Below, piece after piece: positions 39,001 through 42,184 of a stretch of 42,184 bases of DNA. Source of the DNA: a virus (taxonomy: Duplodnaviria > Heunggongvirae > Uroviricota > Caudoviricetes); IMG/VR virus record IMGVR_UViG_2579779052_000008, positions 1-42,184 of that record. One strand, given 5' to 3'. Each line of letters starts with the position of its first letter. The stretch's first letter is position 1. The position numbers are program-made.

Positions 39001-42000
39001 CAAAGGAGGATACACAAAATTTGTAGCCTTTGGCGTAACAATGCTTTCTCATCGGGTTGCTTTTGAGCTTTATCACTCCCCCATTCCATCTGGGAAGATG
39101 GTTTGCCACAAATGCGATAACCCATGCTGCGTTAATCCTGAACATCTCTTTTTAGGTAGCGCGCAAGAAAACATGGACGACAAGATAGCAAAAGGAAGGC
39201 ATCGTGGAGCCAAGAAAGGTCATGCTCATCATGGTGCAAAATTAACAGAGTGGCAGGTTATAGAAATTAGGAAAAGACTCTCTGAAAAAGAGAGTCAGTA
39301 CAAGATAGCAAAAGACATGGGTGTATCTCAATCAATTATAAGCAACATAAAAACTGGCAAGAGGTGGAGCAAATGAGTTCTCGCGGGATAAATAAGGTGA
39401 TTATCCTTGGTCGGGTAGGACAAGACCCGGAAGTTCGATACTCACCATCAGGAACAGCGTTCGCTAACCTGACAATAGCCACGTCAGAACAATGGCGAGA
39501 TAAAAATACTGGCGAGCAAAAGGAATTGACTGAATGGCATCGTGTTGCTGTATCCGGGAAACTGGCTGAGGTCGTGGGGCAGTATGTGAAAAAAGGTGAT
39601 CAGATTTATTTCGAGGGAATGCTGAGAACCAGAAAGTGGAAAGACCAGTCAGGGCAAGACCGTTACACAACCGAGGTTCATGTCGGAATTAATGGCGTGA
39701 TGCAAATGCTTGGCGGCATTGGCGACAGTAAACAACAAGCAGCCAGCAGGCAATCACAGAAGCCACAGCAGCAATCATCACCAGCACAACACAACGAACC
39801 TCCGATGGATTTTGACGACGATATACCCTTTGCACCAGTAACTCTCCCCTTCCCTCGTCACGCTATTCACGCAATTTAATCAGGAGAAAATCATGCCAGC
39901 GCCTCAGTATGGTGCGGATGACCCGCGCCGCTGTTCCGGCAATTCCGTATCGGAGGTGCTGGATAAATTCAGGAAAAACTACGACCGGATAATGTCGCTA
40001 CCGCAGGAAACGAAAGAGGAAAAGGAATTTCGCCATTGTATATGGCTTGCAGAGAAAGAAGAACGCGAGCGAATTTACCAGACATCAATCCGACCATTCC
40101 GCAAAGCCACATATACCCACTTCCCTGAATATATCGACCCTCGCCTGCGTAATTACCGCTCACGCTATGGCGCTATCAGTAATGACTGAGGAATTTACTA
40201 TGAGAGGACTTGCATACAATCCCGGCATTCTTCCGGCAGAAATGATTATTCGCCAACGCGTAAAGCCAATGCCATCGAGAGAGGAATTGCTTAAGAGAAA
40301 TTCTTTTCCATCAGTGAATCAAAACAAATATCTGAATGCGATGTGGCGCAAAGGAGGCAGCCAGTGACTAACCGTTTTTACATGATGTGCTCGCGTGAAA
40401 CTGTGGGCAATAACGCTTCATTCCATTGCCATAACGGCAATGGTTACAGTTCTGATATCGATCGCGCTCATGTTTACACGCTGGAAGAAGCCCAAAAAGC
40501 CTGGAATTGTGGGCGAGATATCGATCAGCCTGTTTGCGCTGATAGCGTGGATGCAATGGCAGTGTGGCACGTTGATTGCCAGTACATCCCTACAGAAAGC
40601 CTGATTGAGTCAGATTGCACTGCGTATGTGGCCTACAAAAAAGGTAGCTGGAACGGCAACGATGTTTACTGGCTTCAACACGGTGGATTGCCAACAGATG
40701 ACTTCAGTAAAGCGACCATCTTTAGCGTCGCCAACAAAAACGAACCAGGAATAGTTTGGTTGCCATTTTCCATTGCTGATGCAGCAAAGCGCAGGACGTT
40801 CAATATCAATAACTTTAACCGCAGAACAATGGTTCAGGGCGCAGGTTTGGTCATGCCTGACTGGTTGAAAGAGCAGAACAGAAGAAAGAAGTCGCGAAGC
40901 GGGAAGGTGCGTTGGAATTGTCCGCATTGCGGAAAAATCTCCTGGCAGTACAGCCCATATGATTTTGAAGGCTGTAGTGATTACAACTGTGAAGGATGGC
41001 GAGAATGACAATTGACTATCAGGCACTGCGTGATGCGGCAGAAGCAATAAAAATAGCAGCCACACCACAAAAATTGCTGGCATTTCGTATGAAGGTCACA
41101 CCTCAGGTTGTGCTGGCACTACTGGATGAACGGGAAAGGAACCAGCAATACATCAAATCCCGCGACCAGGAGAACGAGGAAATTGCGCTAACGGTAGGGA
41201 AGCTGCGCGTTGAGCGGGAGGCAGCAAAAAAACGCATAGCAGAACTGGAAGCCGAACCTGTAAGCCAAACTTACAAGTTGCCTTCCCTGCCATCCAGCGA
41301 AGTAAACGACGCGGCATGGAAATTACACAACATGCTGACTGAACACGGCCCGCTAAATGGGCGTCAGTTCAGCAATCTGAAAGGTTGCTTCTATGAGGCA
41401 TTAAAGGTCGCAATGCGCAACTATCCGGTAACTCCGGATAGTTGGATAAGCTGTAGTGAGCGAATGCCGAACGATAAACAGTATGTTTGGTGTTGGGGTA
41501 AGTCTTACGGCTGGACTGAGTGCGATACCTTCGAAGGGTATTACGATTGGTCGAGAAACAAATGGTGGGCAGTTACTGACAATGGGGAAGAACCGGCATC
41601 GAAAGTAACCCACTGGATGCCGCTACCGGAGCCGCCGCAGGAGGTTAACCGTGGCTAACCTGCAACTTGCCGTCAAAGGTGAATAACAATCCTCGCACTC
41701 GCGGGGATTTCTTTTATCTGAACTCGCTACGGCGAGTTTTGTTTTATGGAGATGATAAATGCACTTCCGAGTCACAAGTGAATGGAATGGAGAACCATTC
41801 AACAGAGTTATCGAAGCAGGGGACATCAACGACTGCTATGCCCACTGGATGCTGTGGGCGCAGATAGCACATGCAGACGTAACCAACATTCGAATTGAAG
41901 AACTGAAAGAACACCAAGCCGCCTGATGGCGGTTTTTTATTGCCTGATTTGCAGGTTCGATTCCCTATTCGGAGATAGCACTCATGCAACACGAACTACA

Positions 42001-42184
42001 GCCTGATTCACTGGTTGATTTGAAATTCATCATGGCCGATACTGGCTTCGGTAAAACCTTCATCTACGACCGGATTAAGTCCGGCGACCTGCCAAAAGCC
42101 AAAGTTATCCACGGACGAGCAAGATGGTTATATCGTGACCATTGTGAATTCAAAAATAAGCTCTTAAGCCGCGCTAATGGGTAA

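What the first reader, a model, noticed from the sequence alone, without database searches (positions are those of the whole stretch)
41940..42184. Second copy of the 16-bp tRNA-derived core lies 20 bp upstream of the TorI-like excisionase gene rather than at a clean prophage end
The 16-nt TTGCAGGTTCGATTCC from the argW T-arm (1171-1186) recurs exactly at 41949-41964, between two terminators and just before the excisionase gene, but the sequence after it does not continue as the tRNA 3' end. Either this is the right att core and the excisionase belongs to a second, tandemly integrated element, or the true attR is beyond the window and this copy is an internal regulatory or decoy site in the excisionase promoter. 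The encoded tRNA 3' end at attL is ACACTT rather than ACACCA.
Basis: partly seen in the sequence, partly recalled or inferred. Interest (0 to 1): 0.55.

Follow-up and report, generated by a model that had tools for sequence, protein, structure and literature searches.

The report
tRNA-like motif before prophage excisionase gene
The repeated 16 bases are real, but they are not the prophage's end: the true right end lies about 75 bases past the window, and the repeat is a conserved, tRNA-derived motif just upstream of the excisionase gene whose function has not been tested.

Summary
Observation confirmed: TTGCAGGTTCGATTCC occurs exactly twice, in the argW T-arm (1171-1186) and 19 nt before the torI start (41949-41964).

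The tandem-element reading is wrong. This is a KplE1/HK620/Sf6-type prophage, in which attP lies between the excisionase gene (torI) and the integrase gene, so the two genes end up at opposite prophage ends.

The real att core is the next piece of argW, CTGCAGGGGACAC (1186-1198). A draft-assembly contig identical to both window ends joins torI, 73 nt, this core, the P' arm and int. The right copy therefore lies 74-86 nt past the window, which was cut at the torI stop codon. The ACACTT tRNA end comes from the phage: its attP reads ...GACACTT.

The 16-mer is the E. coli form of a conserved leader element, CAGGTTCGATTYC, placed 3-5 nt before the Shine-Dalgarno sequence. It is present in K-12 KplE1, in HK620 and in about 26% of complete E. 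coli genomes. GGTTCGATT is invariant in 12 lineages from several genera, while the adjacent leader is scrambled.

The element copies the argW segment that abuts the crossover and contains the TorI pentamer GTTCG. I infer a regulatory binding site for the integrase or TorI; this is untested. The prophage is ordinary, and the element is modestly interesting.

The parts
1126..1198 (+). argW, tRNA-Arg(CCT), rebuilt at attL. The gene ends ...GGGGAC A C and then TT instead of CA, so the CCA end is not encoded.
   Evidence: ARAGORN; sequence; alignment with K-12 argW.
1171..1186 (+). First copy of the 16-mer: the argW T-arm segment that directly abuts the att core on its left. This is where the bacterial 'B' side of attB/attL must lie.
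1186..1198 (+). True att core, attL copy: CTGCAGGGGACAC, which is 13 of the 16 nt of the KplE1 core CTGCAGGGGACACCAT. It is the only copy in the window.
   Evidence: single occurrence. Contig L005 joins the torI-side P arm to exactly this position. Core sequence from PMC2951348 and the HK620 'attP core' annotation.
1199..1361 (+). P' arm of attL overlapping the integrase promoter. TorI-type pentamers lie in 10-bp register: GTTCG 1208-1212, ATCCG 1218-1222, GTCCG 1228-1232, then GTTCG 1271-1275, GTTCG 1281-1285, GACCG 1291-1295. TTGACA is at 1296-1301. IntS arm-type repeats (GGGTAAAA and inverted TTTTACCC) lie at 1317-1361.
   Evidence: Sequence. Alignment with K-12 attL and HK620 attP. TorI site coordinates and pentamers from PMC2951348 mapped on K-12.
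1362..2522 (+). IntS-family tyrosine integrase, 386 aa.
   Evidence: 85% aa identity to K-12 IntS. Pfam Arm-DNA-bind_3, Phage_int_M and Phage_integrase.
41916..41941 (+). Intrinsic terminator (GCCGCC-TGAT-GGCGG plus T-run) closing the upstream early-left gene. Homology shared with many other lambdoid phages stops at about 41941-41946.
   Evidence: terminator scan; phage matches ending at query positions 59-67.
41949..41964 (+). Second copy of the 16-mer. The part conserved across genera is 41952-41964 (CAGGTTCGATTCC, consensus CAGGTTCGATTYC); position 41965 is a further C in most lineages. It is an argW T-arm-like leader element of the RDF gene.
   Evidence: K-12, HK620; cross-genus conservation; also in front of a second RDF subfamily.
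41971..41974 (+). Shine-Dalgarno GGAG of torI, 6 nt after the 16-mer and 5 nt after the 14-nt element.
   Evidence: Sequence; alignment.
41984..42184 (+). torI, the recombination directionality factor (excisionase), 66 aa.
   Evidence: 100% identical to K-12 TorI and to PDB 1Z4H.
42179..42184 (+). Start of the attR P arm. GGGTAA is the first 6 nt of the first of two GGGTAAAAT integrase arm-type repeats; it overlaps the torI stop codon and is cut by the window end. By inference the attR core follows at window-equivalent 42258-42270.
   Evidence: L005 and L004 continue 100% identical past the window...aatGGGTAAAATagcGGGTAAAATatttc...gtagatgtCTGCAGGGGACAC. The HK620 record marks this stretch as an attP repeat_region.

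Best explanation
Shown: the window holds a KplE1/HK620/Sf6-type prophage in argW. In the phage circle the order is early-left operon, terminator, torI, attP, int. Integration therefore puts int next to argW (attL) and torI at the far end (attR). The crossover core is CTGCAGGGGACAC (1186-1198). Its right-hand copy lies 73 nt after the torI stop codon, that is 74-86 nt beyond the window, which was clipped at that stop codon. TorI belongs to this phage. The tRNA end ACACTT comes from the phage: this phage's attP reads CTGCAGGGGACAC-TTG, so it shares only 13 nt with attB. Everything 3' of the crossover in the rebuilt tRNA gene is phage DNA, and the CCA must be added after transcription.

Shown: the second 16-mer is the E. 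coli form of a 13-14 nt leader element (CAGGTTCGATTYC, usually followed by C). The element lies 3-5 nt upstream of the Shine-Dalgarno sequence of the RDF gene in most lineages (12 nt in Serratia). It occurs in many argW-targeting phages of Enterobacterales. It is much better conserved than synonymous sites or the surrounding leader.

Inferred: the element descends from captured argW DNA, because residual identity extends into the variable-loop and 3' T-stem positions in a lineage-specific way. It is probably kept because it is a binding site for the module's own recombination proteins and controls torI expression (combined probability about 0.55). My preferred version (about 0.3) is that it mimics the bacterial 'B' half of attB. 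In that version the core-binding/catalytic domain of integrase molecules held on the GGGTAAAAT arm repeats at the torI stop codon also grips the site in front of torI. That would loop out or block torI while integrase is the only recombination protein present in the lysogen. The next version (about 0.25) is a TorI operator, since the element contains GGTTCG as in TorI site I4, giving RDF autoregulation. The structural part of this statement has a probability of about 0.97. No binding or expression step was tested.
For: Structure:
- L005 is 100% identical to window 40452-42184, then has 73 nt, then is 100% identical to window 1186-1426.
- L004 continues identically for 73 nt past the window and breaks at the core.
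- Related prophages CP53, LZYWN_4 and K-12 have torI, about 73 nt, CTGCAGGGGACACCAT, then dsdC.
- 48 of 49 IMG/VR loci with enough flank have the core 73-74 nt after the stop.
- HK620 annotates the attP core at that place, between hkaC (=torI) and int.
- Published data give the 16-nt KplE1 core, IntS plus TorI excision, and xis-attP-int order in KplE1, HK620, Sf6 and Kapi1 (PMC2951348, PMC8787464).
- TorI is 100% and Int 85% identical to K-12.

Element:
- It is present in K-12 and HK620, in 75 of 80 IMG/VR E. coli-type loci, and in 1404 of 5426 complete E. coli genomes.
- In 12 lineages (Escherichia, Enterobacter, Citrobacter, Serratia, Pantoea, Edwardsiella and others) GGTTCGATT is invariant. 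Pairwise identity is 0.58 at torI third codon positions and 0.35 in the 25 nt upstream.
- Its position is fixed at -29 to -32 from the ATG in most lineages (-38 in Serratia, and a distal duplicated copy at -45 in L130).
- It is duplicated in tandem in one lineage, with one copy then decaying.
- It also sits in front of a distant RDF subfamily (Emek-like) whose integrase arm sites differ (GGGCATAA) but whose target is the same argW core.

Binding-site inference:
- Differences between attL and attR confine the crossover to TGCAGGGGAC. By the general architecture of lambda-type integrases, the B core-type site must therefore cover the T-loop segment.
- The C side of attP keeps TTCGAT at the same offset in most lineages.
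- TorI sites were defined by mutating GTTCG, GATCG and GTCCG (PMC2951348). K-12 site I4 is TGGTTCGC.
Against: - No protein-DNA or expression experiment is available here, and the two papers that footprinted attL/attR (JBC 2007, Virology 2010) could not be read.
- The element is absent from several lineages that keep the same core and arm repeats (L015, L017, L018, L132, Erwinia phage 49). It is therefore dispensable for recombination.
- It is a lone half-site about 215 bp from the nearest arm repeat, with no overlap-like partner.
- As a TorI site it is isolated. Known TorI sites come in 10-bp phased arrays and read GTTCGC, whereas the element is invariantly GTTCGAT. The second TorI-like pentamer seen in many lineages lies 12 nt away, not 10.
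- No sigma-70-like promoter was found between the terminator and torI, so what a bound protein would repress is unclear.
Confidence: 0.55

Rival explanations
1. The 16-mer is the true right att core of the 40-kb prophage, and torI belongs to a second element integrated in tandem.
For: It is the only exact repeat of 16 nt or more that links the two ends of the window, and it derives from the target tRNA.
Against: A contig identical to both window ends joins torI to int through attP. The free phage HK620 carries the same 16-mer, torI, attP and int arrangement internally. The experimentally defined core is CTGCAGGGGACACCAT (PMC2951348). DNA on both sides of the 16-mer is phage DNA in more than 100 loci. 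What follows the real core in related loci is bacterial DNA (the dsdC or cscB side), not a second integrase.
Confidence: 0.01
2. TorI operator: TorI binds the GGTTCG in the element, and in many lineages a second GTTCG/GTCCG-like pentamer next to the Shine-Dalgarno sequence, and so limits its own synthesis.
For: TorI pentamers GTTCG, GATCG and GTCCG were defined by mutagenesis, and TorI represses PintS (PMC2951348). K-12 site I4 is TGGTTCGC. Variants of the element read CAGTTCGA (L124, L125) or AAGTTCGA (Emek), which is closer to the CAGTTCG consensus. A second pentamer 12 nt downstream is GTTCG in L011 and L020, GTCCG in L019, L124 and L129, and ATTCG in E. coli.
Against: Known TorI sites form 10-bp phased arrays and read GTTCGC/T. 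The element is invariant beyond the pentamer (GATTYC), which this model does not explain. The spacing to the second pentamer is 12 nt, not 10 or 20, and that pentamer is missing in several lineages.
Confidence: 0.25
3. RNA-level element: in the read-through transcript the T-loop-like GGUUCGAUUCC just 5' of the Shine-Dalgarno sequence affects torI translation or mRNA fate. Possible routes are weak UUCC:GGAG pairing that masks the Shine-Dalgarno sequence, or recognition by a factor that binds tRNA T-arms.
For: The element holds a fixed position 3-5 nt before the Shine-Dalgarno sequence in most lineages, and it travels with the Shine-Dalgarno sequence when the RDF coding region is exchanged. The only variable position inside it is C/T opposite G53, which keeps G-C or G-U pairing. 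UUCC is complementary to GGAG in most lineages (read).
Against: RNAalifold predicts no conserved pair in 12 lineages. The T-stem is not maintained: 2 bp in E. coli and at most 4 bp in Serratia. There is no Rfam match other than a sub-threshold antisense hit.
Confidence: 0.15
4. CII-activated PI-like promoter, as annotated in the HK620 record: TTGCCTGATTTGC would be the CII site and the 16-mer would lie in the spacer of a promoter for 'phage integration'.
For: AF335538 annotates a promoter and a cII protein_bind feature at exactly this place. The motif TTGC-N5-TTGC is present at 41940-41952.
Against: The spacing is N5, whereas this phage's own pRE-like site is the canonical TTGC-N6-TTGC (33696-33709, inside the start of the cII-position ORF). 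N5 matches occur at chance frequency (4 found, 3.3 expected). The first TTGC is TTAC in K-12, CP53, LZYWN_4 and about a quarter of the IMG/VR loci. Neither TTGC is conserved in other genera, while the element is. There is no -10/-35 match.
Confidence: 0.05
5. Functionless relic: a scrap of argW picked up by an ancestral aberrant excision or left from an older, longer attP homology. It would appear conserved only through common descent or because it marks a mosaic junction.
For: Similarity to argW extends beyond the invariant block in a lineage-specific way (TT-GCAGG in E. coli, CCTG in Serratia and Pantoea, AAT in Edwardsiella), which fits a once-longer tRNA fragment. Homology with other lambdoid phages stops 3-8 nt before it. 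The same leader precedes two RDF subfamilies. Several lineages have lost it, and one (L116) shows decay.
Against: Nine invariant positions in 12 lineages, against 0.35 identity in the adjacent leader and 0.58 at synonymous sites, is not neutral behaviour. At 13-16 bp the repeat is, from general knowledge, too short for RecA-mediated conversion against argW or for homologous module exchange.
Confidence: 0.08

Closest known systems
KplE1 (CPS-53) recombination module of E. coli K-12: argW-attL-intS ... torI-attR (Panis, Ansaldi and co-workers)
   Same: Same target tRNA and same gene order and orientation. TorI is 100% identical and the integrase 85% identical. The arm-type repeats and phased TorI pentamers in the P' arm are the same, and the 16-mer sits in front of torI at the same place.
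   Different: The window's phage is a complete 40-kb prophage, not a 10-kb remnant. Its attP shares only 13 nt with attB (CTGCAGGGGACAC-TT) instead of 16, so the rebuilt argW gene does not encode CCA. This P' arm variant was found at 90% identity or more in only 2 of 5426 complete E. coli genomes.
Phages HK620, Sf6, CUS-3 and Kapi1 (xis-attP-int order, argW core)
   Same: HK620 has terminator, TTGCAGGTTCGATTCC, Shine-Dalgarno sequence, hkaC (=torI), arm repeats, core and int, 98.7% identical over 41880-42184. The literature states that attP lies between xis and int in these phages (PMC8787464).
   Different: Those are P22-like podoviruses with the 16-17 nt core. The morphogenesis genes of the window's phage were not examined here.
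pawZ, the annotated argW pseudogene fragment at KplE1 attR in K-12
   Same: It is a tRNA-derived fragment at the torI end of the prophage.
   Different: pawZ is the real core copy (CTGCAGGGGACACCA) downstream of torI. The 16-mer is a different, upstream fragment of the T-arm and is not annotated in K-12.
Lambda attP/Int/Xis paradigm (heterobivalent integrase; core-type sites C, C', B and B' flanking a 7-bp overlap; arm-type sites)
   Same: The Arm-DNA-bind, central and catalytic domain integrase, the arm repeats and the RDF sites on one arm are shared. The proposed role of the element as a B-type half-site borrows this logic.
   Different: attP lies between the RDF and int genes, and int is autoregulated from a promoter inside attL (PMC2951348). 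No lambda counterpart of a core-type half-site in front of xis is known to me (from memory).
T-loop sublocation class of tRNA integration sites (Williams 2002, recalled from memory)
   Same: The element and the C side of attP in most lineages carry T-loop sequence (TTCGAT), as expected if an ancestor crossed over in or next to the T-loop.
   Different: Present-day crossover is confined to TGCAGGGGAC, which is the 3' T-stem and acceptor stem. The T-loop copy in front of torI is not at a recombination junction.

Membership tests
KplE1/HK620/Sf6-type recombination module | IntS-family heterobivalent tyrosine integrase immediately downstream of argW, in the same orientation, with its promoter inside attL | tested here: met
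   85% aa identity to K-12 IntS. Pfam Arm-DNA-bind_3, Phage_int_M and Phage_integrase. TTGACA and the arm repeats align with K-12 PintS/attL.
KplE1/HK620/Sf6-type recombination module | TorI-type RDF gene at the opposite prophage end, pointing towards attR | tested here: met
   The ORF at 41984-42184 is 100% identical to K-12 TorI and to PDB 1Z4H.
KplE1/HK620/Sf6-type recombination module | attP lies between the RDF gene and the integrase gene in the excised or free form | tested here: met
   Contig L005: torI, 73 nt, core, P' arm, int, 100% identical to the window on both sides. HK620 has the same order.
KplE1/HK620/Sf6-type recombination module | 16-nt core CTGCAGGGGACACCAT duplicated at both prophage ends | tested here: inconclusive
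   The attL copy is present, but only 13 of 16 nt match (CTGCAGGGGACAC-TT). The attR copy lies outside the window. It is inferred from L004, L005 and 48 of 49 related loci.
KplE1/HK620/Sf6-type recombination module | TorI-binding pentamers (GTTCG, GATCG, GTCCG) in phased blocks on the P' arm, and GGGTAAAA arm-type repeats on both arms | tested here: met
   Pentamers lie at 1208, 1218 and 1228 and at 1271, 1281 and 1291. Arm repeats lie at 1317-1361 and at the torI stop codon. Binding itself was not tested.
   Both flanks of 41949-41964 are phage DNA in HK620 and in more than 100 loci. The attP junction maps to 1186-1198 instead.
Lambda-type CII-activated promoter (PI/PRE class) | TTGC-N6-TTGC straddling a weak -35, conserved with the phage's CII | tested here: not met
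   The site here is N5. The first TTGC is TTAC in K-12 and many other loci, and the site is not conserved in other genera. The window's pRE-like site is N6.
TorI operator array | Two or more G(T/A)(T/C)CG pentamers in 10-bp register | tested here: not met
   There is one perfect pentamer (GTTCG, 41955-41959). The nearest TorI-like pentamer is 12 nt away (ATTCG in E. coli) and nothing lies at +/-10. A single-site operator is not excluded.
tRNA gene or tRNA pseudogene | A foldable T-arm with flanking tRNA parts | tested here: not met
   ARAGORN finds no tRNA at 41949. Identity to argW stops after 16 nt. There is no conserved hairpin.
Rfam STnc130 sRNA | Score at or above the gathering threshold (55 bits) | tested here: not met
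   25.2 bits on the minus strand at 41907-42034, E = 0.07-0.18.

The most novel reading that the evidence does not exclude
The T-arm-like element is a deliberate mimic of the bacterial half of attB, placed in front of the excisionase gene. Integrase, or TorI, would read it as 'target-like DNA' and use it to gate RDF synthesis. That would add an unrecognised control layer to excision in KplE1 of E. coli K-12, in HK620/Sf6-type phages and in many argW prophages of Enterobacterales.
Probability: 0.3. Interest if true: 0.6.

Novelty: new member of a known kind. Interest (0 to 1): 0.35.

Why it matters
First, it settles the boundary question. The prophage ends about 86 nt to the right of the window, the excisionase is its own, and there is no evidence for a tandem element. 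The same clipping at the torI stop codon affects 29 of 80 related IMG/VR provirus contigs. Automated prophage boundaries in this very common family, found in about a quarter of complete E. coli genomes, therefore routinely lose attR.

Second, the group that studied KplE1 concluded that the excision switch 'relies on RDF gene expression' and that this control remained to be understood (PMC2951348). A strongly conserved, tRNA-derived 13-nt element directly in front of the torI ribosome-binding site is present in K-12 itself. It gives a concrete, cheaply testable handle on that question.

Third, this phage variant rebuilds argW without an encoded CCA, and a relative also changes the discriminator base. 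That is a small natural test of how tolerant E. coli is to a CCA-less tRNA-Arg(CCU) gene.

Tried and rejected
(1) 'torI cassette inserted into one contiguous copy of the argW 3' half'. In E. coli the 16-mer and the core are exactly adjacent in argW, overlapping by 1 nt, which suggested a single split fragment. I rejected this because in most other genera the C side of attP also carries T-loop sequence (TTCGATGTnTGCAGG), so the T-loop is present twice. In addition, the right boundary of the upstream copy differs between lineages: CC in E. coli and CCTG in Serratia and Pantoea.

(2) CII/PI promoter, as annotated in HK620. The spacing is wrong and the site is not conserved.

(3) Conserved RNA hairpin or T-arm fold. 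RNAalifold gave 0 pairs.

(4) Known RNA family. Only sub-threshold hits were found.

(5) A sigma-70 promoter between the terminator and torI. None was found.

(6) Tandem island after attR. The commonest sequence after the core in IMG/VR loci leads to cscB (sucrose permease, identified from memory of its sequence), which is bacterial DNA, not an integrase.

(7) Literature. No paper in the library contains the 16-mer string. The JBC 2007, Virology 2010 and PNAS 2013 KplE1 papers are not held, so I cannot exclude that the element was noted there.

(8) Looking for the same prophage in complete E. coli genomes to read its attR directly. No identical prophage was found; the nearest P' arm relatives are 93-95% identical.

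(9) Looking for TorI-family modules aimed at a different tRNA, to see whether the element tracks the target. All loci recovered use the argW core, so this test could not be made.
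Full report
OBSERVATION.
The 16-mer TTGCAGGTTCGATTCC occurs exactly twice in the window, at 1171-1186 and at 41949-41964. There is no further match even with two mismatches, and shuffles gave a mean of 0.03 matches. It is the only exact direct repeat of 16 nt or more that links the two ends.

The first copy lies in tRNA-Arg(CCT), at 1126-1198. It covers the end of the variable region, the 5' T-stem, the T-loop and two bases of the 3' T-stem. 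The second copy ends 19 nt before the ATG (41984) of a 66-codon ORF whose stop codon is the last triplet of the window. After it the sequence reads CTATTCGGAG and does not continue as tRNA.

The tRNA gene ends GGGGACACTT instead of GGGGACACCA. One detail in the finding is wrong. There is a single intrinsic terminator just upstream (41916-41935) and none between the repeat and the ORF.

WHAT THE LOCUS IS.
The window starts with a gene annotated yfdC in related E. coli records, followed by argW. An integrase gene (1362-2522) follows argW in the same orientation. It has Arm-DNA-bind_3, Phage_int_M and Phage_integrase domains and is 85% identical to IntS of the K-12 prophage KplE1/CPS-53. The terminal ORF is 100% identical to TorI, the KplE1 recombination directionality factor whose structure is PDB 1Z4H.

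In KplE1 the duplicated core is CTGCAGGGGACACCAT, and excision needs IntS, TorI and IHF (PMC2951348). In KplE1, HK620, Sf6 and Kapi1, attP lies between xis and int, so the two genes sit at opposite prophage ends (PMC8787464; PMC2951348).

WHERE attR IS.
The core, as CTGCAGGGGACAC, occurs only once in the window, at 1186-1198. Five observations place the right-hand copy just beyond the window.

- In prophages with nearly identical right ends (strains CP53, LZYWN_4 and K-12), torI is followed after about 73 nt by CTGCAGGGGACACCAT and then by dsdC.
- K-12 annotates that copy as the argW pseudogene fragment pawZ.
- Of 49 IMG/VR loci that encode an identical TorI and have enough flank, 48 have the core 73-74 nt after the stop codon.
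- Two draft-assembly contigs carry exactly this phage. L004 is 100% identical to window 36996-42184 and runs on for 73 nt, ending just before the core.
- L005 is 100% identical to window 40452-42184, then has the same 73 nt, then is 100% identical to window 1186-1426. That is core, P' arm and the start of int.

L005 is an attP junction, from excised phage DNA or from a tandem lysogen. It shows that torI and int belong to one element. It also places the right core copy at window-equivalent 42258-42270.

The window was simply cut at the last gene boundary. The same thing happened to 29 of 80 related IMG/VR provirus contigs. The torI stop codon lies inside the first of two GGGTAAAAT integrase arm-type repeats, so the P arm of attR starts within the last six bases of the window.

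Where related loci extend past the core, they continue into bacterial DNA (the dsdC or cscB side), not into a second integrase.

THE ACACTT END.
The attP of this phage reads ...GTAGATGT-CTGCAGGGGACAC-TTGTTTCGAG.... HK620 and K-12 have ...CTGCAGGGGACACCAT-TTATCAG....

DNA to the right of the crossover at attL is phage DNA. The rebuilt argW gene therefore carries the phage's CTT in place of CCA.

Two related E. coli prophages behave the same way. Strain fM51a has ACACTT. Strain LZYWN_4 has ACGCTT, which also changes the discriminator base, and it still has the intact ACACCAT at attR.

These differences, together with the TGCAGG start of identity in other genera, confine strand exchange to TGCAGGGGAC. 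This P' arm variant is rare: only 2 of 5426 complete E. coli genomes match it at 90% identity or more. From general knowledge, E. coli can trim such a precursor and add CCA with its CCA-adding enzyme. Whether this tRNA is functional was not testable here.

WHAT THE SECOND 16-MER IS.
It is not peculiar to this window. The same sequence stands in front of torI in K-12 KplE1 (L134 10076-10091), in phage HK620 and in 75 of 80 IMG/VR loci. The leader plus torI is present at 95% identity or more in 1404 of 5426 complete E. coli genomes.

Many other lambdoid phages share the upstream ORF end and terminator, but their homology stops at about 41941-41946. The element therefore lies within a few bases of the left edge of the torI-attP-int module.

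TorI homologues from other genera, 60-85% identical, were recovered from one-genome-per-species contigs and from IMG/VR.

- In about 14 lineages (Enterobacter, Citrobacter, Serratia, Pantoea, Edwardsiella and several unnamed ones) the leader is otherwise unalignable. It still keeps CAGGTTCGATT(C/T)C, usually followed by C.
- The element starts at -29 to -32 from the ATG and ends 3-5 nt before the GGAG (-38 and 12 nt respectively in Serratia).
- In a 12-lineage alignment GGTTCGATT is invariant. Mean pairwise identity is 0.76 over torI, 0.58 at third codon positions and 0.35 in the 25 nt upstream of the element.
- One lineage has the element duplicated in tandem with a 16-nt period, and in one member the proximal copy has begun to decay.
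- Several lineages lack the element (L015, L017, L018, L132, Erwinia phage 49), and one shows two substitutions (L116). All of these keep the arm repeats and the core.
- The same leader also precedes a distant RDF subfamily (Salmonella phage Emek and relatives, MRELRDDSL...). Their integrase arm repeats differ (GGGCATAA), but their core is still the argW core.

Identity to argW extends beyond the invariant block in different directions in different lineages (TT-GCAGG in E. coli, CCTG in Serratia and Pantoea, AAT in Edwardsiella). The simplest history is an old, longer argW-derived fragment whose centre has been held by selection. The exact 16/16 match is the E. coli state of that element.

HOW IT MIGHT WORK (INFERENCE).
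No conserved RNA structure is predicted. There is no Rfam family and no sigma-70-like promoter.

Two DNA-level readings fit the sequence.

(a) The element reproduces the part of argW that lies immediately left of the crossover region. In a lambda-type system this is where the bacterial core-type half-site B must lie. The C side of attP keeps TTCGAT at the same offset in most lineages (TTCGATGTnTGCAGG). The element is also retained across phages that share only the attB target. Both points suggest recognition by the integrase core-binding/catalytic domains. Integrase held on the arm repeats at the torI stop codon, about 215 bp away, could bridge to it.

(b) The element contains GTTCG, the pentamer whose mutation defined TorI sites. 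It resembles site I4 (TGGTTCGC), and many lineages have a second TorI-like pentamer 12 nt downstream. However, known TorI sites come in 10-bp arrays and read GTTCGC.

I rate a binding site for the module's own proteins at about 0.55 (integrase mimic 0.3, TorI operator 0.25). I rate an RNA-level role at about 0.15, the CII/PI promoter annotated in HK620 at about 0.05, and a functionless relic at about 0.08. The CII site has N5 rather than N6 spacing, its first TTGC is TTAC in K-12, and it is not conserved. None of these readings was tested.

COMPARISON AND NOVELTY.
The prophage is a new member of the well-studied KplE1/HK620/Sf6 family, with a rarer attP variant. The boundary puzzle has an ordinary explanation.

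The conserved T-arm-like leader element is present in sequences known for two decades. I found no paper in the searchable library that contains the string. The three most relevant subscription papers could not be read, so prior description cannot be excluded.

The element matters mainly because the KplE1 authors identified RDF expression as the unresolved switch for excision.

VERDICT.
The tandem-element reading is refuted. The reading 'attR beyond the window, internal site' is supported. A regulatory function is plausible but unproven. Interest 0.35.

Noticed in passing
window 1186-1201; L003 48318-48333 (minus strand); L135: The rebuilt argW gene does not encode CCA: ACACTT here and in strain fM51a. 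In strain LZYWN_4 the discriminator base is also changed (ACGCTT). The variant P' arm is rare, found at 90% identity or more in 2 of 5426 complete E. coli genomes.
   Followed up: partly
window 1316, 5755, 9617, 36100 (+ strand): The integrase arm-type motif CGGGTAAAA occurs 4 times, against 0.24 expected and 0 of 100 shuffles reaching 4. Only the copy at 1316 lies in attL. The copy at 36100 lies in the non-coding stretch between a terminator (about 35900-35923) and the early-left genes, next to repeated TTTACAC-like sequences that may be operators.
   Followed up: no
L031-L110 (IMG/VR loci), and the window end: 29 of 80 provirus contigs encoding an identical TorI end exactly at the torI stop codon, as this window does. 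Automated boundaries therefore drop the P arm and attR core systematically in this family.
   Followed up: yes
L126, L127 and L130, about -45 to -16 from the RDF start: The T-arm-like element is duplicated in tandem (CAGGTTCGATTCCCGT-CAGGTTCGATTCCCAT). In L130 the proximal copy carries a substitution (GGTTCGGTT).
   Followed up: partly
L137 (Salmonella phage Emek) 1800-1835; L203, L215, L220, L231, L245: A leader nearly identical to that of some TorI-type loci, including the element and the Shine-Dalgarno sequence, precedes a much more distant RDF (MRELRDDSL...). A mosaic junction therefore sits at or near the start codon.
   Followed up: partly
window 41907-42034, minus strand: There is a sub-threshold Rfam similarity to the enterobacterial sRNA STnc130 (25 bits, gathering score 55). 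It is antisense to the torI start and ends at the reverse of the upstream terminator hairpin. It is probably chance.
   Followed up: partly
window 34361-34443: ARAGORN calls a tRNA-Ala(CGC) inside the 215-aa ORF 34163-34810, which occupies the repressor position. It is likely a false positive. The tRNA-Thr and tRNA-Asn at 26462-26617 (minus strand) look like ordinary phage tRNA genes.
   Followed up: no
window 32763-32797 and 32829-32863: Two 35-nt direct repeats, 94% identical and 66 nt apart, each containing GGTAAT-type sub-repeats, lie inside the ORF 32351-33250 (minus strand). They look like replication-origin iterons.
   Followed up: no
L032 and about 30 other IMG/VR loci, downstream of the attR core: The commonest flank after CTGCAGGGGACACCA is GATACCCTTC..., which leads to a 415-aa permease that I recognise as CscB. 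In many strains the argW prophage therefore abuts the sucrose (csc) island rather than dsdC.
   Followed up: partly
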